Source: an uncultured Candidatus Saccharibacteria bacterium
Lineage (GTDB): Bacteria > Patescibacteriota > Minisyncoccia > Portnoybacterales > UBA2143
DNA length: 64,000 bases
Direction of reading: 5' to 3'
NCBI GenBank assembly: GCA_964403725.1
Contig: CAYOHI010000003.1
Span: forward strand, 14,374-78,373
This document shows, piece by piece, positions 50,679-59,148 of this stretch. Position numbers and translations under genes: made by a program. The notes below the pieces were generated by a model. The model worked only from the letters and a program-made list of their open reading frames with translations. It was not told the DNA's origin and made no database searches. Numbering within the stretch: position 1 is the first letter of the stretch; each line of letters starts with the position of its first letter.

Positions 50679-52094
50679 TTAATTGCTACATTCATTAATA
50701 ACACAATATTGAACTTCAGGCGGATCAGCTGATTCTCGGTTAATTGATCCATCTTCCGATTCTATAACAAACTTGCCCCAAACCATTTGCATCCAGCAAG
50801 AAAATTTAATTTCTCCAGTTCCTTTTGGTAAAAACTCAATAATATTTTCTCCTTTTGTTAATTCCTGTCTAATATCGTAGTCACTTAATAATATTTCATC
50901 TGTGCACCCTGTCATTTGCTTAACATTAATAATCCAACGCACAGGGATGCCTTGTCTAATGTGCAATACATTTGGGCTGTATCCTTTATATGAAAGCTCC
51001 ATATTTATTACCTGATACTCCATATCATCAGAAATCATATATTCTGACTGGCCAATCTGATCAGAGGCTGATATGCCCCGAAATCCATAACCAAAATTAA
51101 TTAATCCTCGATTAAACATGAATAAACCCAAGACTATTACTATAATGCCAGAAACTTTCATTATCTGCTTAATTCTGTGTTGGCTAATTAATGTTACAAA
51201 ACTTCCAAAACCAAACATTAATGGAACAGTTCCTAGGCCATAAATTCCCATAGACAAAGCACCGCTAATAATACTGCCTGAAGCAAGAGCGTATAGCTGC
51301 ATAGCTTGTAAAGGACCACATGGCATAAATCCATTTAAAAGTCCTATAACAAATGGTCCTTTGGGACTCTTGCTGTAACGCTGATTGTAAAGATAACGAG
51401 CAATAAAGGACGGCGTTCTTAATTTAATAATTTCCAACCATTTAAAATTAGTTACCAATGATAATCCTAGTAAAGCCATAAAAATGCCAGCTCCTATGGT
51501 AACTATGCCAGTAAATATGGAGTTAATTGCAAAAAAAGAGCCAAAACCACCTAAGATAGCGCCAATAACTGCATATGAAATTATTCTACCCAGATTATAT
51601 TGCCAGTGCCTAATATATTTACCATGGCATTTAGAGCTTTGGTTAACGCTATAGGCAACAACCAATCCTCCACACATACCAATACAATGAAATCCTGCTA
51701 ACAGGCCAATAACCAAGATTAACCAATAACTGATTTTCTGTTCATCTAATATTGAAAATATCTCAAGCAAACCATAATCACGAATTAACTGATAAGCAAT
51801 GATAAATAGGAAGATTAGGATCAAGCTAATTAGAATATTTCTGAATAAATGACCTGGTTTTCTCTTTTTTTGATTCGGCAAATCATGTTCCATTTCATAG
51901 CCAAGCTCTTTAACTCTTTTGGCAATATTTTTTTGACTAATCTTATCATCATCATACTCAATTTGAGCCTGTCCAGTTTGATGATTTACTTTAATGTGAT
52001 TGACGCCTTTAAGCGCGTCCAGTTCTGATTCCAAAAGTATTTTACAGCTTTTACAATAGATGCCTTGGATATGTCCTTTGATTTTTTTAAGCAT
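50679..52094 (-). CDS. three-module metal-handling membrane protein: HMA-like domain, polytopic membrane domain, and C-terminal Cys/Met-containing extracytoplasmic domain
   Basis: N-terminus IYCKSCKILLESELDAL resembles an HMA domain with CxxC. The membrane core carries GFHCIGMCGG. The C-terminal roughly 110 aa contain GCTDE and SCWMQM (Cys/Met, cupredoxin-like?). Confidence 0.5.
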   Translation of the reverse strand: MLKKIKGHIQGIYCKSCKILLESELDALKGVNHIKVNHQTGQAQIEYDDDKISQKNIAKRVKELGYEMEHDLPNQKKRKPGHLFRNILISLILIFLFIIAYQLIRDYGLLEIFSILDEQKISYWLILVIGLLAGFHCIGMCGGLVVAYSVNQSSKCHGKYIRHWQYNLGRIISYAVIGAILGGFGSFFAINSIFTGIVTIGAGIFMALLGLSLVTNFKWLEIIKLRTPSFIARYLYNQRYSKSPKGPFVIGLLNGFMPCGPLQAMQLYALASGSIISGALSMGIYGLGTVPLMFGFGSFVTLISQHRIKQIMKVSGIIVIVLGLFMFNRGLINFGYGFRGISASDQIGQSEYMISDDMEYQVINMELSYKGYSPNVLHIRQGIPVRWIINVKQMTGCTDEILLSDYDIRQELTKGENIIEFLPKGTGEIKFSCWMQMVWGKFVIESEDGSINRESADPPEVQYCVINECSN

Positions 52095-52096
52095 AA

Positions 52097-52417
52097 TTAA
52101 TTTAAATCCTTTTTCTTTTCTTCAAATTCTTTCTTATCTATCTCGCCCCTAACATAGCGCTTTTTTAAAATATCCAAAGCACTATTATTAACTTCTTCAT
52201 TCTTCGGGCCCACGGCCCATCTAATAATTAGAACCACTCCAATAATCAGCAAAGGCCAGAACAATATTGATGAAACGAATCCATGGCTTCCCATAAGAAA
52301 ATCCCCCATCATAGAATCCATGGCAAAATGATTGTTATTAGAATCACCGTGGGCCAATAATACTGACGGCAGGATCAAAAGAAAACCCAGAACTATGATT
52401 GATATTGTTATTTTCAT
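52097..52417 (-). CDS. small membrane protein with Met/His-rich segment and SHOCT-like C-terminus
   Basis: HFAMDSMMGDFLMGSHG, then a TM helix, then ALDILKKRYVRGEIDKKEFEEKKKDL (SHOCT-like). Confidence 0.45.
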   Translation of the reverse strand: MKITISIIVLGFLLILPSVLLAHGDSNNNHFAMDSMMGDFLMGSHGFVSSILFWPLLIIGVVLIIRWAVGPKNEEVNNSALDILKKRYVRGEIDKKEFEEKKKDLN

Positions 52418-52422
52418 ATTTA

Positions 52423-52947
52423 CTAAAACAAGTCAGCTACCTGTTCAAGTTCTGACTCATTTATTATTATCTTTCCATTATCGACTTTCAAATTAGGGTT
52501 AATTGGCCCTGGATTGCAGCCGCCTTTTTCTGTGGCAATTTTTTCTAGTGGATATTTATTGCCACAAGTGGCACAAACCATGAAATTACCCTCTTGAGTA
52601 AAGCCCATTCTGGCACCATAGCAAACCTGACAAGCATTAGCCGCAGCCCGATAAACACCAGACCGATCTTTAACAACAAAGTAATAAATAGTCTTACCTG
52701 AAGACAGCTTAGTGTTATAGTATTGGACTATATTATCATCTAACTTGTCTGCAGATAGAACGACCTGGCCATTAGTCAACTCCACACTTTGTCCATTTTT
52801 ACCAGTAAATTCAACTTCACTAACTTGATCTTGTCTTTGGCCATTTGGTTCAGCTAACTTGCTATTACCGGTATTTTTTAACAAGATATAGCCGCCAGCC
52901 AAGATAATAATGCCAATTAGGATATAATTTACAGTTTTGCTATTCAT
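52423..52947 (-). CDS. membrane-anchored zinc-ribbon protein (DUF2318-like)
   Basis: N-terminal TM helix. ACQVCYGARMGF...CATCGNKY (CxxC...CxxC). Confidence 0.45.
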   Translation of the reverse strand: MNSKTVNYILIGIIILAGGYILLKNTGNSKLAEPNGQRQDQVSEVEFTGKNGQSVELTNGQVVLSADKLDDNIVQYYNTKLSSGKTIYYFVVKDRSGVYRAAANACQVCYGARMGFTQEGNFMVCATCGNKYPLEKIATEKGGCNPGPINPNLKVDNGKIIINESELEQVADLF

Positions 52948-52956
52948 AGATTTCTA

Positions 52957-53229
52957 TTATTTATTTGCTAATTTGGTTACTTTTAAGATTTCTTGTATCA
53001 TCTCCTGCTTCCTTTTCTCGTTATTGGTTGACATTGCTTTCCTAAAACAATGATTGAGATGATTTTCCATTAACATTTGATGCGCTGACTTTAATAGCCC
53101 AATAGCAGCTAAGTTTTGCTGCATAATATCTATACAATACTCATTGTCATCTGACATTCTAATTAGTTTAGCTAGAAGACTCTGAGCTTTTTTAAAGTTT
53201 ATTGATGTTTTTTGTTTGTACTTTTCCAT
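52957..53229 (-). CDS. csoR: CsoR/RcnR-family metal-sensing repressor
   Basis: 90 aa helical protein with the C-H-C ligand pattern (YCIDIMQQ...SAHQ...NHCF) at CsoR spacing. First gene of the copper operon. Confidence 0.7.
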   Translation of the reverse strand: MEKYKQKTSINFKKAQSLLAKLIRMSDDNEYCIDIMQQNLAAIGLLKSAHQMLMENHLNHCFRKAMSTNNEKRKQEMIQEILKVTKLANK

Positions 53230-53250
53230 AATTGTTTAAAGTTTATTTAT

Positions 53251-53278
53251 TATACCCTGACCATAGGTATAGGTATAT
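53251..53278 (-). promoter_or_regulatory. candidate CsoR operator
   Basis: TATACCCTGACCATAGGTATAGGTATAT, with ATACC...GGTAT inverted symmetry, 22 nt upstream of the csoR start. Confidence 0.3.
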
Positions 53279-53332
53279 ACACTTTATCTCTTATAGAAAT
53301 TCTTGTCAAGCTCCCATCTCTTCTAAATAAAA

Positions 53333-53360
53333 AAACCGCCTAATACAGCGGTTTTTCTAT
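53333..53360 (-). terminator. terminator downstream of tRNA-Trp
   Basis: ACCGC-TGTATTAG-GCGGT hairpin on the minus strand, followed by UUUUUUU. Confidence 0.5.
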
Positions 53361-53372
53361 AAACATACTATA

Positions 53373-53447
53373 TGGCAGGCGCGGAGGGACTCGAACCCCC
53401 AGGATCGGTTTTGGAGACCGACCGTTTACCAGTTAACGGACGCGCCC
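53373..53447 (-). tRNA. tRNA-Trp (anticodon CCA), with the 3' CCA encoded
   Basis: The complement reads GGGCGCG...TCGGT-CTCCAAA-ACCGA...GGTTCGAGTCC...CGCGCCT-G-CCA. The anticodon loop is CU-CCA-AA. Confidence 0.8.
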
Positions 53448-53450
53448 ATA

Positions 53451-53795
53451 TTACTCATTCCAGTCTCTTCTTGTAACTTTACCGTAATTTTTTAAAGCAA
53501 ATCCTTTGGGATGTCTTTTATTCAGTTTTTTTATATTCTCATCCATCACTTCCTGTAAATCCCATCCATAAGAATTGCAAATCATTGCCATATACCATAA
53601 GGTATCACCTAGGTTTTCCCGGGTACCTTTTCTTTCATCGCTTCCCCTACCATGGCCATGGGTCTTTTTGATGCATCCGGCAACATCGCCAGCTTCTCCA
53701 GCAATGCCTAATCCCCAGATGAGAATCTCCTTTTCTTTGTCCTTGTACTTCTTAGCAGTTCTTTTACAAAGTTTTTGGTATTCTCTTAAATCCAT
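53451..53795 (-). CDS. MazG-like nucleoside triphosphate pyrophosphohydrolase (small all-alpha NTP-PPase)
   Basis: LGIAGEAGDVAGCIKK...ENLGDTLWYMAMICNSYGWDL matches the MazG EExxE/D...LGD.LWY pattern. Confidence 0.65.
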   Translation of the reverse strand: MDLREYQKLCKRTAKKYKDKEKEILIWGLGIAGEAGDVAGCIKKTHGHGRGSDERKGTRENLGDTLWYMAMICNSYGWDLQEVMDENIKKLNKRHPKGFALKNYGKVTRRDWNE

Positions 53796-53796
53796 A

Positions 53797-53955
53797 TTAC
53801 TTCTTCATTTCTTTATGAGGAGTATGTTTTTTGCACCATTTGCAAAACTTCTTCAGTTCTAATTTATCCTGAGTTGTTTTTTTGTTTTTACGAGACCAAT
53901 AATTGATTCTCTTGCATTCAGTGCATTGAAATTTTACTAAAAAATCTTGTGACAT
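53797..53955 (-). CDS. rpmG: 50S ribosomal protein L33 (52 aa, below the ORF-track size cutoff)
   Basis: The minus-strand translation MSQDFLVKFQCTECKRINYWSRKNKKTTQDKLELKKFCKWCKKHTPHKEMKK has the bL33 CxxC...CxxC zinc ribbon and NY..RKN/LELKK blocks. Confidence 0.85.
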   Translation of the reverse strand: MSQDFLVKFQCTECKRINYWSRKNKKTTQDKLELKKFCKWCKKHTPHKEMKK

Positions 53956-53979
53956 ATTTTTATCTTTCTTTTTACCTCC

Positions 53980-54261
53980 TGGAGCCGATGGTGAGAGTCG
54001 AACTCACGACCTACTCCTTCTCTTGCACCTCTATTTATTTAAATACATATTAGAGGAATAGACTGTATCTTAGACATATCTTTTTTAAGACTTAGTCTCC
54101 CTTGTCAGTCGTTCGAGCGCTTCAAATTGATTGGCGCTACGGTCTGAACCTTGTATCAGGCCTTTAACCGTAATTCGGGATTCAATTAGATGTTTCTATC
54201 TAAATGGGCAGAGATCGAGGAGATCTACCATGGAGGTGCTCTACCACTGAGCTACATCGGC
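53980..54261 (-). tRNA. tRNA-Thr (anticodon GGU), interrupted in the anticodon loop by a roughly 207-nt intron, with the 3' CCA encoded
   Basis: Exon 1 (54261 down to 54227) reads GCCGATG-TA-GCTC-AGTGGTA-GAGC-A-CCTCC-ATGGT. Exon 2 (54019 down to 53980) reads AA-GGAGT-AGGTC-GTGAG-TTCGACT-CTCAC-CATCGGC-T-CCA. Joined, they form a complete cloverleaf with a perfect 7-bp acceptor stem. This closely resembles bacterial tRNA-Thr(GGU). Confidence 0.7.
54020..54226 (-). mobile_element. putative group I self-splicing intron in the tRNA-Thr anticodon loop (boundaries ±2 nt)
   Basis: It follows U36 of the tRNA and ends in G. Internal elements resemble group I cores: UACGG...CCGUA (P4-like), GAGACUA...AGUCU (P7 with G-site-like GACUA), UCUUA...UAAGA (P8-like), and CCUCUA...UAGAGG (P9-like). 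Size is comparable to the smallest known tRNA group I introns. Confidence 0.55.
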
Positions 54262-54845
54262 TTATATATTGTTAACATTTCGTTTATTATATCTCTTAAC
54301 TTCTTATTACTATAATAAACAGTTAAAACACCATATTTTGATTTCTTTTTATAACTTCCTAAACCACGAGAAGGCGTCACTATTACTTTTTGGAATTGAT
54401 CTGATTTAACATTCAATCTATTTTTCCAAAATTTCAGCGCTTTATTCGGGTCTGTATCGCTAAAAATCTGTAATCCAAATCTTAATTTGCTAATTTGAAT
54501 ATTGCATATTTTCACAAGAAATTCAATAAATTTATTTATCAAGTCGGGATCACTATTACCAAGTCTAATTGAATCCTTATTTCTTTTTGTACCTTCACCC
54601 CAATAAAGACCCAATCCTAAACCCTTCAATTCTTTCTCTTGTGAAGTTAATCTATTTTTAATCTTAAACGGATCACCTTTTGGATTTCTTTTTATATAAG
54701 TAGCTTCACTTCTTGATCTCCTAGGAATACTGTATCTTCGCATCCAATAAGCAATCTTTGAATGACTTAAACCAGTCTTATCTGATATTTCTTTCATTGA
54801 TAAGCCATTACTATATAAATCTTCTAATTTTTCTTTATTTACCAT
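54252..54845 (-). CDS. free-standing LAGLIDADG-family homing endonuclease-like protein with N-terminal HTH
   Basis: LKGLGLGLYWGEGTK is a LAGLIDADG-type motif (single copy, so homodimer class). N-terminal HTH (LSMKEISDKTGLSHSKIAYWMRRY). The stop codon overlaps the first nucleotides of the intron-containing tRNA-Thr. Confidence 0.6.
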   Translation of the reverse strand: MVNKEKLEDLYSNGLSMKEISDKTGLSHSKIAYWMRRYSIPRRSRSEATYIKRNPKGDPFKIKNRLTSQEKELKGLGLGLYWGEGTKRNKDSIRLGNSDPDLINKFIEFLVKICNIQISKLRFGLQIFSDTDPNKALKFWKNRLNVKSDQFQKVIVTPSRGLGSYKKKSKYGVLTVYYSNKKLRDIINEMLTIYKPM

Positions 54846-55167
54846 CCCTCAATGATTTCTTTTTTGTTTTCTTCTTAATAAAGCTCTTACCTACCATAAC
54901 TGATACTATTACAGAAAGCAAGGTTATGGCTAAGGAATAGAATATCTTATCAGATAAGAGATCTAAATCACCAAATAGTCTGATATATATTTCCTTTAAG
55001 GTGCTGTCCCAAGCTAGAGCTGTGACAATACCTAAAGAAGCAATAATCAGAGTGACTACTCTTCTTCTGAATTCATCTTCAACCTTATCAATCCTATAAT
55101 CCTTAAGGAATTCTTTAATATCCTTAACGCTGATTCTTAAATCTTTAATATTCTTTAAATTTTTCAT
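54835..55167 (-). CDS. small two-TM hypothetical protein
   Basis: The start was set at the ATG at 55165-55167 (MKNLKNIKDL...). The longer ORF-track N-terminus is a translation of tRNA-Tyr. Two hydrophobic helices. Confidence 0.35.
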   Translation of the reverse strand: MKNLKNIKDLRISVKDIKEFLKDYRIDKVEDEFRRRVVTLIIASLGIVTALAWDSTLKEIYIRLFGDLDLLSDKIFYSLAITLLSVIVSVMVGKSFIKKKTKKKSLRDGK

Positions 55168-55171
55168 AATG

Positions 55172-55253
55172 TGGGCGGTGAGGGACTCGAACCCCCGTAG
55201 TCCGAAGACGTCAGGTTTACAGCCTGATGCAATTGCCGCTATGCGAACCGCCC
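55172..55253 (-). tRNA. tRNA-Tyr (anticodon GUA), type II with long variable arm
   Basis: The complement reads GGGCGGT...TCAGG-CTGTAAA-CCTGA-CGTCTTCGGACTACG-GGGGG-TTCGAGT-CCCTC-ACCGCCC-A. Confidence 0.8.
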
Positions 55254-55259
55254 ATAGAA

Positions 55260-56045
55260 TCAAGAATTCTTATATTCCCAATTACTGATTAAACTAGCAT
55301 ATTTCTCTTCTAATTTCAAATAATCTTCTTTTAAGATTAACAAAAGATCTAAATCAGGATACTTTTTCCTAAATTCCCTATCTCTTCTTTTTGAATAATC
55401 ATTGAGGAAATTTTTAACTTCTACATAGAAATCATATTCTGGTAAATAAAAGTCTGGAGTATAGTTTTGAAAACCTAAGTCAAAAACCTTCGGCTGGTGT
55501 ATCCATTTAATTTTTAAAAAATCACATAATCGCGCTATATTTGCTTCCCATCTGCTATAAAAATATGTACTTTTATCTATGTCATTTCTAATACCAGCTT
55601 TACCTCTTGCTGCTTTTGGAGATGTAGGATTACCTCCAATTGTTTTCATAGCACAATCAACACTACAATATTTCCTATTCATCCAACGCTTCTCTAAAAA
55701 AGATTTCCCGCAATTAACACAAATTATTTCCTCTTTTGGTATTTTTTCAATCCCTTTATACGGATTTTCTCTTCCTTTTAGAGATTTTGATATTTTTAAC
55801 TTCGTTTCTTTTGATCTAGATCCTCTGTTTTTATTACTAACCTTTGCAGCACAACTATGACAACAATAAACCTTAGGATCACTAGGCTTTATTTCAAAAG
55901 AATTACTACAACCCTTTCTTTTACAAATTCTTTTCTCTTTCTTCAAATGAAAATTAAATATGCCTTTCTCCCAATTCTTTTTCATTAAAGAACTCTGTTT
56001 TTCTCTATACTCTTTTGACTTATAAAAGCTATAAGGCATAGTCAA
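55260..56045 (-). CDS. homing-endonuclease-like protein: NUMOD3 motifs, two Cys4-type zinc-finger candidates, and a C-terminal PD-(D/E)xK-like nuclease motif
   Basis: SKETKLKISKSLKGRENPYKG and SKEYREKQSSLMKKNWEKG are NUMOD3-like. CKRKGC...CCHSC and CVNCG...CSVDC are Cys pairs. C-terminal YTPDFYLPEYDFYVEVK fits PD...(D/E)xK. The gene is wedged between two tRNAs with gaps of 7 nt or less. Confidence 0.5.
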   Translation of the reverse strand: MTMPYSFYKSKEYREKQSSLMKKNWEKGIFNFHLKKEKRICKRKGCSNSFEIKPSDPKVYCCHSCAAKVSNKNRGSRSKETKLKISKSLKGRENPYKGIEKIPKEEIICVNCGKSFLEKRWMNRKYCSVDCAMKTIGGNPTSPKAARGKAGIRNDIDKSTYFYSRWEANIARLCDFLKIKWIHQPKVFDLGFQNYTPDFYLPEYDFYVEVKNFLNDYSKRRDREFRKKYPDLDLLLILKEDYLKLEEKYASLISNWEYKNS

Positions 56046-56052
56046 CTTCTAG

Positions 56053-56126
56053 AGCCGAGGAGAGGATTCGAACCCCCAAAACCTTCGCTTTACAAAAGCG
56101 CTGCTCTACCGTTGAGCTACCTCGGC
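56053..56126 (-). tRNA. tRNA-Thr (anticodon UGU)
   Basis: The complement reads GCCGAGG-TA-GCTC-AACGGTA-GAGC-A-GCGCT-TTTGTAA-AGCGA-...-TTCGAAT-CCTCT-CCTCGGC-T. The anticodon loop is UU-UGU-AA. The variable/T-stem region is slightly atypical. Confidence 0.7.
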
Positions 56127-56129
56127 TAA

Positions 56130-56813
56130 CTACTTAATATCTGATTTTTTAATCTCTTCTAAAGTTTCTTTTACTTTCTTATCTTTACAGCCAAGCTTAA
56201 TAGCCATTTCTAAAGAAGATTTAGCATCAATGTAGTTGTGCTGTTTGAAGTAAAGCAATCCTAGGAATTTGTATGCCGTAATATTTTTAGGATCTTCAAC
56301 TATTAAATCAATCCATTTCTGTTCTTCTTTGATCGGCTTTTTCAATTCGCTGATTGGCAACTCATCATCATCTTCAATAGTTTCTTGCTTGATTTCTTCT
56401 TTCTTTTCTTCCTTGTTAATCTTAACAAAAACTGGCTCATCTGTCTCTTTTTTGCCCTCCTTAGACTTATTCCTTTTCTCTTCTCTTTGCCTGATCCATT
56501 CTTTGGATTTCTGAGTCATAATCTGGGAACGGTTTCTCAGAAAAACAATACACTTACTAAGCAAGTTCTCTATCTTGAGAAAAACTATCTTTATCTTCCT
56601 TAAAAGCTTTTCTAGAGCAATTATGAAATTAAGCCAGTGCTGCTTGTAATCAACTTCTCTAATCTTTTGAACAATACCCTTTTTTCTACTTAAAATAGAT
56701 ATCTCCTCATCTGAGAGACGAGCTAATGCTGGAATCTTGTGATAGACAATGACTGCTAAGCCAATTATACTAGAGGCTATCAAGAAATATAGGATAATGT
56801 TTAGATTAGACAT
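56130..56813 (-). CDS. membrane-anchored TPR-repeat protein
   Basis: N-terminal TM helix, a Lys/Glu-rich linker, and a C-terminal TPR-like repeat (AYKFLGLLYFKQHNYIDAKSSLEMAIKLG). Confidence 0.45.
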   Translation of the reverse strand: MSNLNIILYFLIASSIIGLAVIVYHKIPALARLSDEEISILSRKKGIVQKIREVDYKQHWLNFIIALEKLLRKIKIVFLKIENLLSKCIVFLRNRSQIMTQKSKEWIRQREEKRNKSKEGKKETDEPVFVKINKEEKKEEIKQETIEDDDELPISELKKPIKEEQKWIDLIVEDPKNITAYKFLGLLYFKQHNYIDAKSSLEMAIKLGCKDKKVKETLEEIKKSDIK

Positions 56814-56815
56814 CT

Positions 56816-57265
56816 TTATATCGCTATTCGAGAAAACTTGCCTATTTTAATATTCTCCCCTAGTTTGCCAACTAATTCTTTGACCAAGCCATCAACAGTC
56901 TTTTCCGGGTCCTTGATGAAAGGCTGTTCAGCTAATTCTTTTTCATCTTTTGGATCCATAGCTGCAATATGCATGGCAATATCATGGGCTAAAGATTTAA
57001 ATTCTTCATTTTTAGCAACAAAGTCAGTTTCGCAGTTCAGTTCAAAAAGAACACCAACTTTGCCATTGTTATGAATATATGGCTCGATTGTTCCTTGCTT
57101 AGCTTCCCTATCTGATTTTTTAAGAGCTTTTTCTGCTCCTTTTGCTTCTAGAACTTTAATAGCTTTTTTTTCGTCTCCTTCAGCTTCCTCCAGGGCTTTC
57201 TTGCATTCCATGATTGAGAAGCCTGTCTTCTGACGAAATTCTTTGATTTGGTCCATTGAAATCAT
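56816..57265 (-). CDS. tsf: elongation factor Ts (short form)
   Basis: N-terminal UBA-like FRQKTGFSIMECKKALEEAEGDEKKAIKVLEAKG. Core GKVGVLFELNCETDFVAKNEEF. Confidence 0.85.
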   Translation of the reverse strand: MISMDQIKEFRQKTGFSIMECKKALEEAEGDEKKAIKVLEAKGAEKALKKSDREAKQGTIEPYIHNNGKVGVLFELNCETDFVAKNEEFKSLAHDIAMHIAAMDPKDEKELAEQPFIKDPEKTVDGLVKELVGKLGENIKIGKFSRIAI

Positions 57266-57275
57266 AGTTTTCTCC

Positions 57276-58028
57276 CTATTTATTAATTACTTTGACAATT
57301 GATCCCAAAATTAGCTTTAATGCAGAGATTGCATCATCGTTAGTTGGAATAGGATAATCAATAATAGTCGGATCAGCATTAGTATCGCATAGGCCAACAA
57401 CTGGAATATTCTTCATTTTGGCTTCTTTAACAGCTGCTTTTTCTTTGTGTGTGTCAATGACAAATATTGCATCTGGTAATTTAGTCATTTCCTTGATTCC
57501 GCCAAACTGTCTGTTCAGTTTCTGTATTTCAATATTGAAATCATGCTGTTCCTTCTTAGTATATTTCTTCAATTCGCCAGATTTTTGCTTTTCTTCCAGA
57601 TCTCGGATATGCTCCAGTCTTTTAGAGATAACTTTGAAATTTGTCAAAGTACCGCCAATCCATCTTTCTGTGACATAGAACATCTTAGTCTCTTCTGCTG
57701 TTTCTTTGACAATTTCCTTAGCTGCCACTTTTGTGCCGACAAAGATAATCTTGCCTTTTTTCTGTACAACCTCATAAAGAAATTCCAAGGCTTTTTTGAA
57801 TTTTTCCTCAGTTTTCTCCAAATCAAGAATATGCACATTATTACGCGTAGTATGGATATATTCCTTCATTTTGGCATTCCATTTGGATGTGCGATGACCA
57901 AAATGAACCCCGGCCTTCAGCATCTCTTCAAGGCTTGGAGTTATCTTATCTAACTTAGATTGACTAATCTTTTTGATTTTGACAACCTTTTCTTCTTTTT
58001 GTTTTTTTGTCTTTTTTTCTTCAGCCAT
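57276..58028 (-). CDS. rpsB: 30S ribosomal protein S2
   Basis: MLKAGVHFGHRTSKWNAKMKEYI is the conserved uS2 N-terminus, and the gene lies upstream of tsf. Confidence 0.95.
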   Translation of the reverse strand: MAEEKKTKKQKEEKVVKIKKISQSKLDKITPSLEEMLKAGVHFGHRTSKWNAKMKEYIHTTRNNVHILDLEKTEEKFKKALEFLYEVVQKKGKIIFVGTKVAAKEIVKETAEETKMFYVTERWIGGTLTNFKVISKRLEHIRDLEEKQKSGELKKYTKKEQHDFNIEIQKLNRQFGGIKEMTKLPDAIFVIDTHKEKAAVKEAKMKNIPVVGLCDTNADPTIIDYPIPTNDDAISALKLILGSIVKVINK

Positions 58029-58154: not shown

Positions 58155-58421
58155 ATGAAAAAAGACATTCATCCAAAATATTTTAAAAAAGCTAAAGCTA
58201 AATGCGCCTGTGGCGCCACTTTTGATATTGGCTCAACCAAAGAAAATACAGAAGTGGAAATCTGTTCTCAGTGTCATCCTTTCTACACTGGCAAAGAAAA
58301 AATCATTGAAACTGGCCAAGTAGAGAAATTCAGAGCTAGATTAGCTAAAAAGCAGGAAAACAAGCCTAAAAAAGAAAAGCGAAAAAAGATAAAGGCAAAA
58401 AAGAAGAAGAAAAATGAGTAA
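58155..58421 (+). CDS. rpmE: 50S ribosomal protein L31 (Cys4 type) with Lys-rich C-terminal extension
   Basis: [22 protein letters not shown]...[11 protein letters not shown]. Confidence 0.9.
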
Positions 58422-59148
58422 AGCTATCATTATTGAAATACGAGCTGGTGCTGGTGGTGACGAAGCAGCACTTTTTGCCGCTGATCTTTTCAGAATGTAT
58501 TCCCGCTTTGCCGAAAAAAACGACTGGAAAACTTCTTTGATTAACAGCAATCAAATCGGCATTGGCGGATACAAGGAATTAATCTTTGAAATTAAAGGTG
58601 AAGACGCCTTTGAAAAGCTTCAATATGAAGGTGGTGTTCATCGTGTCCAAAGAATCCCATCAACTGAAAAATCTGGGAGAATCCACACTTCTACTGTTTC
58701 AGTTGCCATCATGCCCCAGGCCACTGAAACTGAAGTTAAAATCAATCCATCAGAAATCAGAATTGATGTCCTGCGAGCTTCTGGTCCTGGAGGCCAGCAT
58801 GTTAACAAAACTGAATCAGCTGTCCGAATCACTCACCTAGCTACTGGTATAATGGTCACTTGTCAGGAAGAAAGGCATCAAATACAAAATAGAGAACGAG
58901 CCATGAATGTACTACGAGCTCGTTTACTTGATAGAAAAAGAAAAGAAGAGCTTACTGCCAGAGGTGATGAAAGAAAAAACCAGATTGGAACTGCTGATCG
59001 GAGTGAAAAAATTAGGACTTACAATTACCCTCAAAACAGGATTACTGATCACCGTATCAAAAAATCCTGGCATAATTTGGAAAAAATCATGGATGGCGAC
59101 CTAAAACCCATCCTCAAAGCTTTTAATAAATTAAAAAAGAAAAGGTAA
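58414..59148 (+). CDS. prfA: class I peptide chain release factor, RF1-like, lacking N-terminal domain 1
   Basis: It begins at the domain-2 block [23 protein letters not shown]. It has the decoding tripeptide region [14 protein letters not shown] (PST, compared with RF1 PAT) and GGQ ([19 protein letters not shown]). The roughly 105-aa N-terminal domain present in canonical RF1 is absent. The start overlaps the rpmE stop. Confidence 0.7.

What the first reader, a model, noticed from the sequence alone, without database searches (positions are those of the whole stretch)
54252..56126. Two homing-endonuclease-like genes wedged between tRNA genes of the conserved thrU-tyrU-thrT-rpmG cluster
The minus strand reads tRNA-Thr(UGU), then a 7-nt gap, then a NUMOD3/zinc-finger/PD-(D/E)xK-like ORF (261 aa), then a 6-nt gap, then tRNA-Tyr, a small 2-TM ORF, a LAGLIDADG ORF (197 aa) and the intron-containing tRNA-Thr(GGU). 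The LAGLIDADG stop overlaps the first nucleotides of tRNA-Thr(GGU). LAGLIDADG and NUMOD-containing nucleases are almost always intron-, intein- or phage-borne. Here both are free-standing, packed against tRNAs, and one sits directly upstream of an intron-bearing tRNA. That suggests a trans-acting or collaborative homing arrangement, or degenerate remnants of it. tRNA-Gly, which normally lies between tRNA-Tyr and tRNA-Thr(GGU) in bacteria, is absent. The inserted genes occupy its position.
Basis: partly seen in the sequence, partly recalled or inferred. Interest (0 to 1): 0.75.

Follow-up and report, generated by a model that had tools for sequence, protein, structure and literature searches.

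The report
Mobile nuclease genes wedged between tRNAs
Two selfish-looking nuclease genes and a self-splicing-type intron have been inserted into a normally compact tRNA gene cluster of a tiny (Patescibacteria/CPR) bacterium, and comparison with relatives suggests that one nuclease moves together with the intron of the tRNA gene it sits against.

Summary
On the minus strand the order is tRNA-Thr(UGU), ORF261, tRNA-Tyr, a 2-TM DUF5654 ORF, ORF197, tRNA-Thr(GGU) split by a 207-nt intron, rpmG, MazG, tRNA-Trp.

The closest relatives (L33 83-92%, EF-Ts 70-79% identical) have empty sites. There, the three tRNAs lie 1 and 12-15 nt apart, with no intron.

ORF197 belongs to a CPR-wide family that always abuts the 5' end of tRNA-Thr(GGU) and usually takes its stop codon from tRNA nucleotides 8-10. 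It is patchy: absent from 7/7 genomes sampled through rpmG.

The intron occurs in 53/81 ORF197-bearing loci and in 0/7 loci without it.

Best reading: both are free-standing homing-endonuclease genes. ORF197 and the ORF-less intron form a trans ("collaborative") homing pair, known so far from phages. No cleavage was tested. The idea that the genes replaced a tRNA-Gly is not supported. I rate this a new variant of a known kind, of moderately high interest.

The parts
56052..56126 (-). tRNA-Thr(UGU). No CCA is encoded here, whereas relatives encode CCA.
   Evidence: ARAGORN; Rfam 59.1 bits; comparison with relatives
55260..56045 (-). ORF261: NUMOD3 + two Cys4-type zinc ribbons + C-terminal PD-(D/E)xK nuclease (D198, E209, K211). 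Putative free-standing homing endonuclease. The likely true start is the ATG at 56039.
55171..55253 (-). tRNA-Tyr(GUA)
   Evidence: ARAGORN; Rfam 55.5 bits
54835..55167 (-). DUF5654 small 2-TM ORF (110 aa). Its stop overlaps the ORF197 start by 11 nt. It is part of the inserted block and is not seen with ORF197 in other loci.
   Evidence: Pfam DUF5654 5.8e-11; sequence; no tblastn hit in L001-L080; absent from relatives
54252..54845 (-). ORF197: N-terminal HTH (residues ~4-53) + single LAGLIDADG domain (~68-192; motif GLGLGLYWGEG, E84). Putative homodimeric free-standing homing endonuclease. Its stop codon is tRNA nucleotides 8-10.
54227..54261 (-). tRNA-Thr(GGU) exon 1 (positions 1-36, ends ...CCTCC-ATGGU)
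   Evidence: ARAGORN -i; sequence
54020..54226 (-). ORF-less 207-nt intron at tRNA position 36/37 (follows U, ends in G). Member of the 'divergent group I intron' family of Patescibacteria tRNA-Thr.
   Evidence: No Rfam hit; homologous intron in 52/80 loci, nhmmer; 41 consensus pairs, 28 with compensatory changes; literature PMC13011429
53980..54019 (-). tRNA-Thr(GGU) exon 2 (positions 37-76 including CCA)
53797..53955 (-). rpmG (ribosomal protein L33), the conserved downstream neighbour used as an unbiased anchor
   Evidence: Pfam 1.5e-19
53451..53795 (-). MazG-like 114-aa gene, a further insertion between rpmG and tRNA-Trp (11-18 nt apart in relatives)
   Evidence: Pfam MazG 1.7e-10; relatives
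53373..53447 (-). tRNA-Trp(CCA)

Best explanation
Both ORFs are free-standing homing-endonuclease-type selfish genes that have colonised the tiny spacers of a compact tRNA cluster.

ORF197 is a member of a Patescibacteria-wide family of HTH + single-LAGLIDADG proteins. These genes are always inserted flush against the 5' end of tRNA-Thr(GGU). The proposed mechanism has four steps.
1. The enzyme, probably a homodimer, cuts the uninterrupted anticodon-arm DNA of naive tRNA-Thr(GGU) genes. That arm (...TCC-ATGGT^AA-GGA...) is a natural 17-bp pseudo-palindrome, and its centre is the 36/37 intron insertion site, about 35 bp downstream of the nuclease gene.
2. Repair of the break from a donor copies in the nuclease gene and, where present, the ORF-less group I-like intron.
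3. The intron, or divergence of the anticodon stem, destroys the site and protects the carrier.
4. This amounts to trans or 'collaborative' homing.

ORF261 is a second, independent element. Its family always lies directly 3' of tRNA-Thr(UGU). Here it sits exactly in what is a 1-nt spacer in relatives, and it presumably targets that tRNA or junction.

All genes are co-oriented with gaps too small for promoters, so they are probably transcribed with the tRNAs. RNase P processing would then cut ORF197 mRNA off from its stop codon, which may keep expression low.

Shown: the folds and motifs, the conserved junctions, the empty sites in the nearest relatives, the patchy distribution, and the intron-ORF197 association.
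Inferred: nuclease activity, the target site, the homodimer, immunity, co-transcription and the expression effect.
For: Fold and motif of ORF197:
- GLGLYWGEG has E84 invariant in 81/81 copies, whether or not the intron is present.

ORF261:
- NUMOD3 is above the Pfam cut-off.
- More than 511 relatives of the nuclease domain lie on viral contigs.

Mobility:
- The nearest relatives (L172-L179; EF-Ts 70-79%, L33 83-92% identical) carry tRNA-Thr(UGU), 1 nt, tRNA-Tyr, 12-15 nt, intronless tRNA-Thr(GGU), rpmG, 11-18 nt, tRNA-Trp.
- Across 7 distinct genomes sampled through rpmG, 0/7 have ORF197, ORF261 or the intron.
- ORF261 is present in only 1/80 ORF197-anchored loci.

Site fidelity:
- ORF197 relatives abut tRNA-Thr(GGU) in 79/80 loci from all CPR lineages, although the rest of the gene order varies.
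- The stop codon is tRNA nucleotides 8-10 in about 45 loci and nucleotides 19-21 in 7.
- Paralogues (23-29% identical) abut tRNA-Trp or tRNA-Tyr in the same way.
- A 26%-identical relative lies inside a jumbo-phage tRNA cluster.

Link to the intron:
- The intron is found in 53/81 loci with ORF197 and 0/7 without it (Fisher p=0.0013). It was found nowhere else in 1.24 Mb of fetched DNA.

Immunity pattern:
- The uninterrupted TCC-ATGGTAA-GGA arm occurs in 5/7 nuclease-less alleles but only 2/23 nuclease-bearing intronless alleles (p=0.0027).
- 50/51 intron-bearing alleles have this arm.

Signs of horizontal spread:
- ORF197 is more similar between genomes than EF-Ts (mean 55.5% vs 50.7%) and correlates only weakly with host markers (rho about 0.33-0.38).
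- The best genome match to the window copy (L001, 65%) has one of the most divergent EF-Ts (38%) and another gene order.
- Intron state needs at least 18 changes on the ORF197 tree.

Precedent: collaborative homing in phages (PMC3984707; PMC2790892, PMC6083498).
Against: - No biochemical test of cleavage, target or splicing was possible.
- Pfam LAGLIDADG_3 is below threshold (13.7 vs 22.5 bits). Foldseek and sequence profiles against the PDB find only the HTH.
- Every copy seen is intact, and the family is as conserved as ribosomal proteins. That is unusual for selfish endonucleases, which normally decay. The 80 loci were, however, the best matches and so are biased towards intact copies.
- 28/81 nuclease-bearing loci have no intron, and two of them (L012, L079) keep the presumed target arm uninterrupted.
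- The TCC/GGA association could partly reflect RNA constraints of the intron: a CUCC upstream of the conserved UGCCC could pair with exon GGAG as P10 (my reading). It could also reflect shared ancestry. The nuclease-less sample is small (7 genomes) and drawn from relatives of the window.
- Viral relatives of ORF261 are not next to tRNAs (0/80). Its closest named phage relatives are annotated as resolvase or endonuclease I.
Confidence: 0.6

Rival explanations
1. ORF197 is mainly a maturase: an RNA chaperone that the sequence-divergent tRNA-Thr intron needs for splicing, as for the LAGLIDADG maturases of fungal mitochondria. It could also have both activities, like I-AniI.
For: The intron is strictly associated with ORF197 (53/81 vs 0/7). 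The intron is too divergent for Rfam group I models (PMC13011429). Self-splicing of this tRNA-Thr intron was not among the introns tested in that paper. The gene is immediately upstream and probably co-transcribed.
Against: 28/81 loci keep an intact, fully conserved ORF197 without any intron. The catalytic-position Glu is invariant, whereas pure maturases and WhiA have usually lost it (established knowledge). The extra domain is a DNA-type HTH. Paralogues abut intronless tRNA-Trp and tRNA-Tyr.
Confidence: 0.15
2. ORF197 (and perhaps ORF261) is a domesticated host factor, for example a WhiA-like transcription regulator of the tRNA/ribosomal-protein operon or a DNA-repair nuclease. On this view it is inherited vertically from the CPR ancestor and lost in some lineages.
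Against: It is absent from 7/7 rpmG-anchored genomes, including the four nearest relatives, which have clean 12-15-nt spacers. It is therefore dispensable, and precise repeated loss is less parsimonious than gain. The architecture differs from WhiA: one domain, an N-terminal HTH, and the acidic residue retained. The nearest ORF197 relatives are not the nearest genomes.
Confidence: 0.12
3. ORF261 is not a homing enzyme but a structure-specific or defence-type nuclease (T7 endonuclease I / resolvase-like, with zinc-ribbon DNA binding). On this view it was acquired from a phage and merely landed next to a tRNA.
For: Sequence matches are to T7 endonuclease I (1.4e-3), to PHROG 'Holliday junction resolvase' (6.8e-15), and to phage proteins annotated endonuclease I or resolvase. 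There is no partner intron. Viral relatives are not tRNA-linked.
Against: The CPR family is fixed at one site, directly 3' of tRNA-Thr(UGU), in all loci examined (L021, L082-L089). It is patchily present. It carries NUMOD3, a homing-endonuclease DNA-binding motif. It is more conserved than EF-Ts of the same genomes (60-65% vs 42-57%).
Confidence: 0.12

Closest known systems
Collaborative (trans) homing in phages: F-CphI next to the ORF-less psbA intron of cyanophage S-PM2 (Zeng, Bonocora & Shub 2009), and T4 mobE with the nrdB intron / I-TevIII (PMC2790892); reviewed in PMC3984707
   Same: A free-standing endonuclease gene lies beside a gene that carries an ORF-less group I-type intron. Nuclease and intron co-occur. 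The intron insertion site is the plausible target and the intron the plausible immunity.
   Different: Here the host is a cellular (Patescibacteria) chromosome and the target is a tRNA gene. The enzyme is LAGLIDADG + HTH rather than Endo VII-like or HNH. The nuclease gene is fused to the tRNA 5' end and uses tRNA nucleotides 8-10 as its stop codon. The family is spread over a whole phylum, and a third of copies have no intron. Cleavage is untested.
Single-motif homodimeric LAGLIDADG homing endonucleases (I-CreI, I-CeuI, I-MsoI, I-Vdi141I) and I-DmoI / intein endonucleases
   Different: Not intron- or intein-encoded. It has an additional N-terminal HTH domain. The first beta hairpin is short, and an extra helix lies between strands in the model. 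Pfam LAGLIDADG models do not reach threshold.
Phage T4 SegB, a free-standing GIY-YIG endonuclease inside the T4 tRNA gene cluster (own knowledge; T4 mobile elements are reviewed in PMC2988022, listed and not read here)
   Same: A free-standing homing endonuclease gene is inserted between tRNA genes and (for SegB) cuts a tRNA gene region of a related genome.
   Different: Different nuclease families, a phage rather than a cellular genome, no intron partner, and no ORF-tRNA overlap.
PD-(D/E)xK and EDxHD homing endonucleases (I-Ssp6803I in the cyanobacterial tRNA-fMet intron; I-Bth0305I), and NUMOD3-bearing phage endonucleases
   Different: ORF261 is free-standing, 3' of the tRNA rather than inside an intron. 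It has two zinc ribbons. By sequence, its nuclease domain is closest to the T7 endonuclease I / phage resolvase group.
'Divergent group I introns' at position 36/37 of tRNA-Thr(GGU) in Patescibacteria (Nakagawa et al. 2026, PMC13011429)
   Same: Same tRNA, same insertion site, same length range. Both escape RF00028, and ARAGORN miscalls them as tRNA-Arg(GCG).
   Different: That paper reports 3 cases in 95 complete genomes. It states that most tRNA introns lack endonuclease genes and that mobility is therefore limited. It does not mention the flanking LAGLIDADG gene found here next to 53 such introns.

Membership tests
LAGLIDADG homing endonuclease (ORF197) | LAGLIDADG helix ending in a conserved acidic residue followed by Gly | tested here: met
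   GLGLGLYWGEG, with G83-E84-G85 invariant in 40/40 and 81/81. Paralogues also keep E-G.
LAGLIDADG homing endonuclease (ORF197) | LAGLIDADG alpha/beta core fold | tested here: met
LAGLIDADG homing endonuclease (ORF197) | Match to a curated LAGLIDADG sequence model | tested here: not met
   Pfam LAGLIDADG_3 E=0.079, 13.7 bits vs cut-off 22.5. 10/40 family members hit it weakly, best 6.4e-4. A profile search against PDB sequences found only the HTH.
LAGLIDADG homing endonuclease (ORF197) | Site-specific double-strand cleavage of a long target | not testable with these tools
   Needs purified protein and substrates.
Homing / selfish mobile gene (both ORFs) | Presence/absence polymorphism at a fixed site, with clean empty sites in close relatives | tested here: met
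   L172-L179 and L185-L189: tRNAs 1 and 12-15 nt apart, with no ORF197, ORF261 or intron. The fixed junctions are documented.
Collaborative (trans) homing pair | ORF-less group I intron in the gene adjacent to a free-standing endonuclease gene, with the two co-occurring | tested here: met
   The 207-nt intron has no ORF. Intron in 53/81 loci with ORF197 vs 0/7 without it, p=0.0013.
Collaborative (trans) homing pair | [quoted passage not shown] | tested here: inconclusive
   Indirect evidence only. The uninterrupted TCC-ATGGTAA-GGA arm occurs in 5/7 nuclease-less alleles vs 2/23 nuclease-bearing intronless alleles (p=0.0027). This is confounded by ancestry and by possible intron P10 constraints.
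PD-(D/E)xK nuclease with NUMOD3 (ORF261) | D...(D/E)xK catalytic residues in a restriction-endonuclease-like fold | tested here: met
PD-(D/E)xK nuclease with NUMOD3 (ORF261) | NUMOD3 DNA-binding motif | tested here: met
   Pfam PF07460 22.2 bits vs cut-off 20.4, residues 78-98. Several homologues carry the precomputed hit.
Group I intron (insert in tRNA-Thr(GGU)) | Match to Rfam group I covariance models | tested here: not met
   No hit at E<=1 over 52000-58000 nor at gathering score over the whole window. PMC13011429 reports the same.
Group I intron (insert in tRNA-Thr(GGU)) | Conserved structured core, U before the 5' splice site, G at the 3' end | tested here: met
   In the window the exon ends ...GGU and the intron ends ...G. 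41 consensus pairs, 28 with compensatory changes, in 33 introns.
Group I intron (insert in tRNA-Thr(GGU)) | Guanosine-dependent self-splicing | not testable with these tools
WhiA-type domesticated LAGLIDADG regulator | Two degenerate LAGLIDADG domains without catalytic acids, a C-terminal HTH, and near-universal presence in the lineage | tested here: not met
   ORF197 has a single domain, an N-terminal HTH and an invariant Glu. It is absent from 7/7 rpmG-anchored genomes.

The most novel reading that the evidence does not exclude
The HTH-LAGLIDADG proteins form a previously unrecognised class of tRNA-gene-specific mobile elements in Patescibacteria and their jumbo phages. Their reading frame is physically fused to the tRNA, with the stop codon supplied by tRNA nucleotides 8-10, so that expression is gated by tRNA 5' processing. 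Paralogues would serve tRNA-Thr, tRNA-Trp and tRNA-Tyr. The tRNA-Thr lineage would drive the spread and maintenance of the ORF-less 'divergent group I intron' in trans. [quoted passage not shown]
Probability: 0.3. Interest if true: 0.8.

Novelty: new variant of a known kind. Interest (0 to 1): 0.65.

Why it matters
- **Intron persistence.** The recent survey of tRNA introns in Patescibacteria concluded that they mostly lack endonuclease genes, so that mobility is limited, and proposed a regulatory benefit to explain their persistence. A flanking trans-acting endonuclease offers a simpler, testable explanation for the tRNA-Thr intron.
- **Origin of mobile introns.** Collaborative homing has so far been documented in phages. 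A phylum-wide example in cellular tRNA genes would show that this stage is common and long-lived.
- **Tools.** The family is a source of very small (about 195 aa) LAGLIDADG enzymes with an added HTH and a naturally pseudo-palindromic target. That may interest meganuclease engineers.
- **Annotation.** More than 2000 'hypothetical proteins' can be named. Gene callers also routinely run these ORFs through tRNA genes, and the split tRNA-Thr is missed by default tools.

Tried and rejected
- Rfam at E<=1 on the region and at gathering score on the whole window gave no group I or other family for the intron.
- Foldseek of the ORF197 model against the PDB gave no significant hit. The top rows (OmpA-like, IspF) have TM about 0.3 and were rejected.
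- A profile of the ORF197 family against PDB sequences found only HTH matches.
- The metagenome scan with the single ORF261 sequence used patterns that were too specific. ORF261 context was recovered from exact-protein look-ups instead.
- ORF197 has no match in 50,697 sequenced phage genomes.
- Viral relatives of ORF261 are not next to tRNAs, so a general 'phage tRNA-cluster nuclease' origin for ORF261 was dropped.
- The idea that ORF197 is a universal CPR housekeeping gene arose from its conservation. It was rejected after the rpmG-anchored sample.
- I considered a recognition site spanning the spacer/tRNA 5' junction. It is less likely because the upstream spacer is not conserved between lineages, while the nuclease family is.
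- The high-GC stretch at 13-21 kb was checked for rRNA and introns. It is protein-coding, with no rRNA in the window.
Full report
**1. What is in the window.**
The window is AT-rich (about 32-36% GC around the locus). It comes from a Patescibacteria (CPR) genome. The closest L33 proteins are annotated Patescibacteria or Candidatus Portnoybacteria.

On the minus strand the order is:
- rpsB, a short tsf, and a 227-aa TPR-like ORF
- tRNA-Thr(UGU), 56052-56126
- ORF261, 55260-56045
- tRNA-Tyr, 55171-55253
- a 110-aa DUF5654 ORF, 54835-55167
- ORF197, 54252-54845
- a split tRNA-Thr(GGU), 53980-54261
- rpmG, 53797-53955
- a MazG-like gene, 53451-53795
- tRNA-Trp, 53373-53447

The ORF197 stop codon TAG is tRNA nucleotides U8-A9-G10. 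The DUF5654 stop overlaps the ORF197 start by 11 nt.

Default ARAGORN and Rfam miss the split tRNA. ARAGORN with intron search finds it. Read directly, exon 1 ends ...CCTCC-AUGGU at position 36. The 207-nt insert ends in G, and exon 2 begins AA-GGAGU.

**2. What the two proteins are.**
*ORF197.* Sequence models give an N-terminal helix-turn-helix and only a sub-threshold LAGLIDADG_3 hit (E=0.079). Of 40 family members, 10 hit it weakly, best 6.4e-4.

- then PI-PfuI, I-CeuI, I-Vdi141I, I-CvuI and I-MsoI

Foldseek and sequence profiles against the PDB did not see this relationship. The motif GLGLGLYWGEG places an invariant Glu-Gly where LAGLIDADG enzymes have their metal-binding acid. There is one such domain per chain, so a homodimer is expected. 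That is an inference from I-CreI-type enzymes.

*ORF261.* It has a NUMOD3 motif just above the Pfam cut-off (22.2 vs 20.4 bits) and two Cys-rich ribbons. Its C-terminal PD-(D/E)xK domain has D198, E209 and K211 invariant.

More than 511 relatives of this domain lie on IMG/VR viral contigs. Those are not next to tRNAs.

**3. Both belong to large families tied to particular tRNA genes.**
ORF197 has more than 2000 relatives at E<=1e-3; the 120 best listed are about 54-78% identical, the exact copy aside. In a library clustered at 50% identity, 145 representatives score E<=1e-30.

I examined 80 species-level genome loci spanning Saccharibacteria, Peribacteria, Paceibacterota, Doudna-, Morani- and Wolfebacteria and other lineages. 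The relative lies immediately upstream of tRNA-Thr(GGU) in 79; the remaining locus (L031) ends at the contig edge within exon 1. The remaining gene order varies.

In about 45 loci the stop codon is tRNA nucleotides 8-10, exactly as in the window. In 7 more it is the TAG at nucleotides 19-21.

Paralogues (23-29% identical) lie in the same way before tRNA-Trp (L044, L066; stop on nucleotides 8-10) and before tRNA-Tyr (L058). A 26%-identical relative lies inside the tRNA cluster of two jumbo-phage contigs.

ORF261 has 410 relatives at E<=1e-3; the 120 best listed are 59-69% identical, the exact copy aside. In every locus recovered, the gene follows tRNA-Thr(UGU) by 12-72 nt, after rpsB, tsf and a small ORF (L021 and L082-L089).

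**4. The decisive comparison: empty sites.**
I used rpmG as an anchor that does not depend on either nuclease gene, and fetched loci of the closest L33 proteins.

The nearest relatives of the window genome have EF-Ts 70-79%, the TPR-like ORF 62-70% and L33 83-92% identical. They show this layout:
- tsf and the TPR-like ORF
- tRNA-Thr(UGU)
- 0-1 nt
- tRNA-Tyr
- 12-15 nt
- intronless tRNA-Thr(GGU)
- rpmG
- 3-18 nt
- tRNA-Trp

The window therefore carries four insertions relative to its kin: ORF261; DUF5654 + ORF197; the intron; and MazG.

Two relatives (L175/L177, and a decayed copy in L179) carry a different small gene in the tRNA-Tyr/tRNA-Thr spacer, a 23S_rRNA_IVP-family protein. These spacers thus look like a hot spot for insertions.

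Over 7 distinct rpmG-anchored genomes with tRNA-Thr(GGU) in view, none has ORF197, ORF261 or the intron. Conversely, ORF261 is in only 1 of 80 ORF197-anchored loci.

Both genes are therefore dispensable, patchy and site-specific. That is the signature of homing elements and not of housekeeping genes.

**5. The intron and its link to ORF197.**
The insert is homologous to inserts at the same position in 52 of the 80 loci. An nhmmer profile of it finds nothing else in 1.24 Mb of fetched DNA.

An alignment of 33 copies gives 41 consensus pairs, 28 of them with compensatory changes. Invariant cores include CGAACGACUGACAAGGG and AAGAUACAGUCUA.

It matches the 'divergent group I introns' at 36/37 of tRNA-Thr(GGU) described for Patescibacteria. 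Those also escape RF00028, and ARAGORN miscalls them as tRNA-Arg(GCG) (PMC13011429). I saw the same miscalls.

That paper states that most tRNA introns lack endonuclease genes and that mobility is limited, and it suggests a regulatory benefit. In my text search of the paper, 'free-standing' does not occur.

In my data the intron occurs in 53/81 loci with ORF197 and 0/7 without it (Fisher p=0.0013). On a neighbour-joining tree of ORF197, the intron state needs at least 18 changes, against a mean of 23 for shuffled states. Intron gain and loss is thus frequent relative to the nuclease gene, although the tree is poorly resolved at this depth.

**6. Where the enzyme may cut.**
The anticodon arm of tRNA-Thr(GGU) is, as DNA, a 5+7+5 pseudo-palindrome centred on position 35. 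A homodimeric LAGLIDADG enzyme cutting the central four base pairs would cut across the 36/37 insertion site. This is inference.

Three counts fit an immunity model:
- 50/51 intron-bearing alleles have NNTCC-(A/T)TGGT | AA-GGANN.
- Nuclease-less intronless alleles mostly keep that arm uninterrupted: 5/7, two of them identical to the commonest intron-bearing arms.
- Nuclease-bearing intronless alleles almost never do: 2/23 (p=0.0027).

Caveats apply. The nuclease-less sample is small and consists of relatives of the window. In addition, the GGA requirement could come from the intron RNA itself. A CUCC just upstream of the conserved UGCCC could pair with exon GGAG as P10. This is my reading and was not tested.

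**7. Vertical or horizontal?**
ORF197 pairs are on average 55.5% identical, against 50.7% for EF-Ts of the same genomes. The range is narrow (47-65%), and the correlation with host markers is weak (rho 0.33 with EF-Ts, 0.38 with L33).

The best genome match of the window's copy (L001, 65%) belongs to a genome whose EF-Ts is only 38% identical and whose gene order differs. Genomes with 70-79% identical EF-Ts lack the gene altogether. This favours horizontal spread with strong functional constraint.

All 81 copies are intact and keep every invariant residue, irrespective of intron state. That argues against 'degenerate remnants'. It is also unusual for selfish endonucleases, although the sample is biased towards good matches.

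**8. Mechanism proposed, and what is shown versus inferred.**
Shown:
- the folds and motifs
- the fixed junctions
- the empty sites in the nearest relatives
- the patchy distribution
- the intron-nuclease association
- the arm-sequence pattern

Inferred:
- ORF197 is an active homodimeric endonuclease that cleaves naive tRNA-Thr(GGU) genes at or near 36/37.
- Repair from a donor co-converts the nuclease gene (35 bp upstream of the break) and the intron.
- The intron or stem divergence protects carriers.
- ORF261 acts likewise on the tRNA-Thr(UGU) region.
- The whole cluster is one transcript, because the gaps are too short for promoters.
- RNase P cleavage would remove the ORF197 stop codon, limiting expression.

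The closest precedents are collaborative or trans homing in phages: F-CphI with the psbA intron, and mobE with I-TevIII (PMC3984707; PMC2790892 and PMC6083498). T4 SegB in a tRNA cluster is a further precedent, cited from my own knowledge.

**9. Rivals.**
- *Maturase role for ORF197.* The association with a divergent intron fits. Against it are the 28 intronless carriers, the invariant acid, and the paralogues next to intronless tRNAs. A dual role remains possible.
- *Domesticated regulator.* The conservation and the WhiA similarity fit. Against it are the absence from all nearest relatives and the retained catalytic motif.
- *ORF261 as a resolvase-like or defence nuclease.* Its best sequence matches fit this. 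Its fixed tRNA-linked site, patchiness and NUMOD3 motif argue for homing.

**10. Verdict.**
It is wrong on tRNA-Gly replacement and on degeneracy.

It is a phylum-wide family of tRNA-abutting LAGLIDADG genes coupled to an ORF-less tRNA intron. I found this coupling neither in the one directly relevant paper nor in full-text searches.

I rate it a new variant of a known kind, with interest 0.65. The main weakness is that no cleavage or splicing could be tested.

Noticed in passing
window 53451-53795 (-): A 114-aa MazG-like gene sits between rpmG and tRNA-Trp, which are only 11-18 nt apart in the nearest relatives. It is a fourth insertion in this tRNA cluster. In L044, L059 and L066 the same spacer is occupied by ORF197 paralogues instead.
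   Followed up: partly
window 54835-55167 (-): The DUF5654 two-TM ORF begins 3 nt after tRNA-Tyr, and its stop overlaps the ORF197 start by 11 nt. It is absent from the relatives' empty site and from all 80 other ORF197 loci. It may be cargo of the inserted block.
   Followed up: partly
L175 2782-3264, L177 2531-3013, L179 2956-3425: In three relatives the tRNA-Tyr/tRNA-Thr(GGU) spacer holds a different insert, a 115-aa 23S_rRNA_IVP-family (four-helix-bundle) gene. It is intact in L175 and L177. In L179 it is visibly decayed, with in-frame stops and a deletion. The spacer is a recurrent insertion site.
   Followed up: partly
L044 5112-5786, L066 5527-6192, L059 2794-3468, L058 4794-5447: Paralogues of ORF197 (23-29% identical; 39-45% among the tRNA-Trp group) lie directly before tRNA-Trp or tRNA-Tyr. 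In L044 and L066 they also take their stop codon (TAA/TAG) from tRNA nucleotides 8-10. All keep the E-G of the motif.
   Followed up: partly
L090 and L091 2980-3669 (IMG/VR contigs of 497 kb and 372 kb): A 26%-identical HTH-LAGLIDADG relative (motif LGLGLYWGEGSK) lies between two tRNA-Asn and two tRNA-Glu genes of jumbo-phage-sized contigs. The tRNAs are on the opposite strand.
   Followed up: partly
window 54835-55263 (-); proteins P0008, P0018, P0109, P0128, P0157, P0176: Mechanical ORFs and database gene calls run through tRNA genes. Examples are N-termini such as ...GLRGFESL... and C-termini such as ...AQLVEH...GSIP... or ...GSSPTAG.... Many database entries for both families therefore have spurious extensions, and the tRNAs may be masked in annotation.
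   Followed up: no
L082 3977-4000, L084 3942-4000, L086 3981-4000, L088 3929-4000: ORF261 homologues have a TATAAT-like box (often TGGTATAAT or GATATAAT) ending only 5-7 nt before the ATG. This suggests their own promoter and a leaderless mRNA. The window copy lacks this box.
   Followed up: no
L061 1685-1972 (-): A tRNA-Asp(GUC) with a 213-nt intron lies about 2 kb from the ORF197 locus. The tRNA-Thr intron profile does not match it, so it belongs to a different intron family. No LAGLIDADG paralogue was detected beside it.
   Followed up: partly
window 56816-57265 (-) and 58414-59148 (+): EF-Ts is only 149 aa, and the RF-1-like release factor only 244 aa. Both are much shorter than typical bacterial versions. 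The nearest relatives share these lengths (146-149 aa and about 242-245 aa), while other CPR loci have a 194-aa EF-Ts and a 348-350-aa RF-1.
   Followed up: no
window 53980-54261 (-): Position 27-43 of the tRNA-Thr(GGU) anticodon stem is a C-U mismatch in the window. The nearest relatives also have a mismatch there (C-A, C-U, U-C).
   Followed up: no
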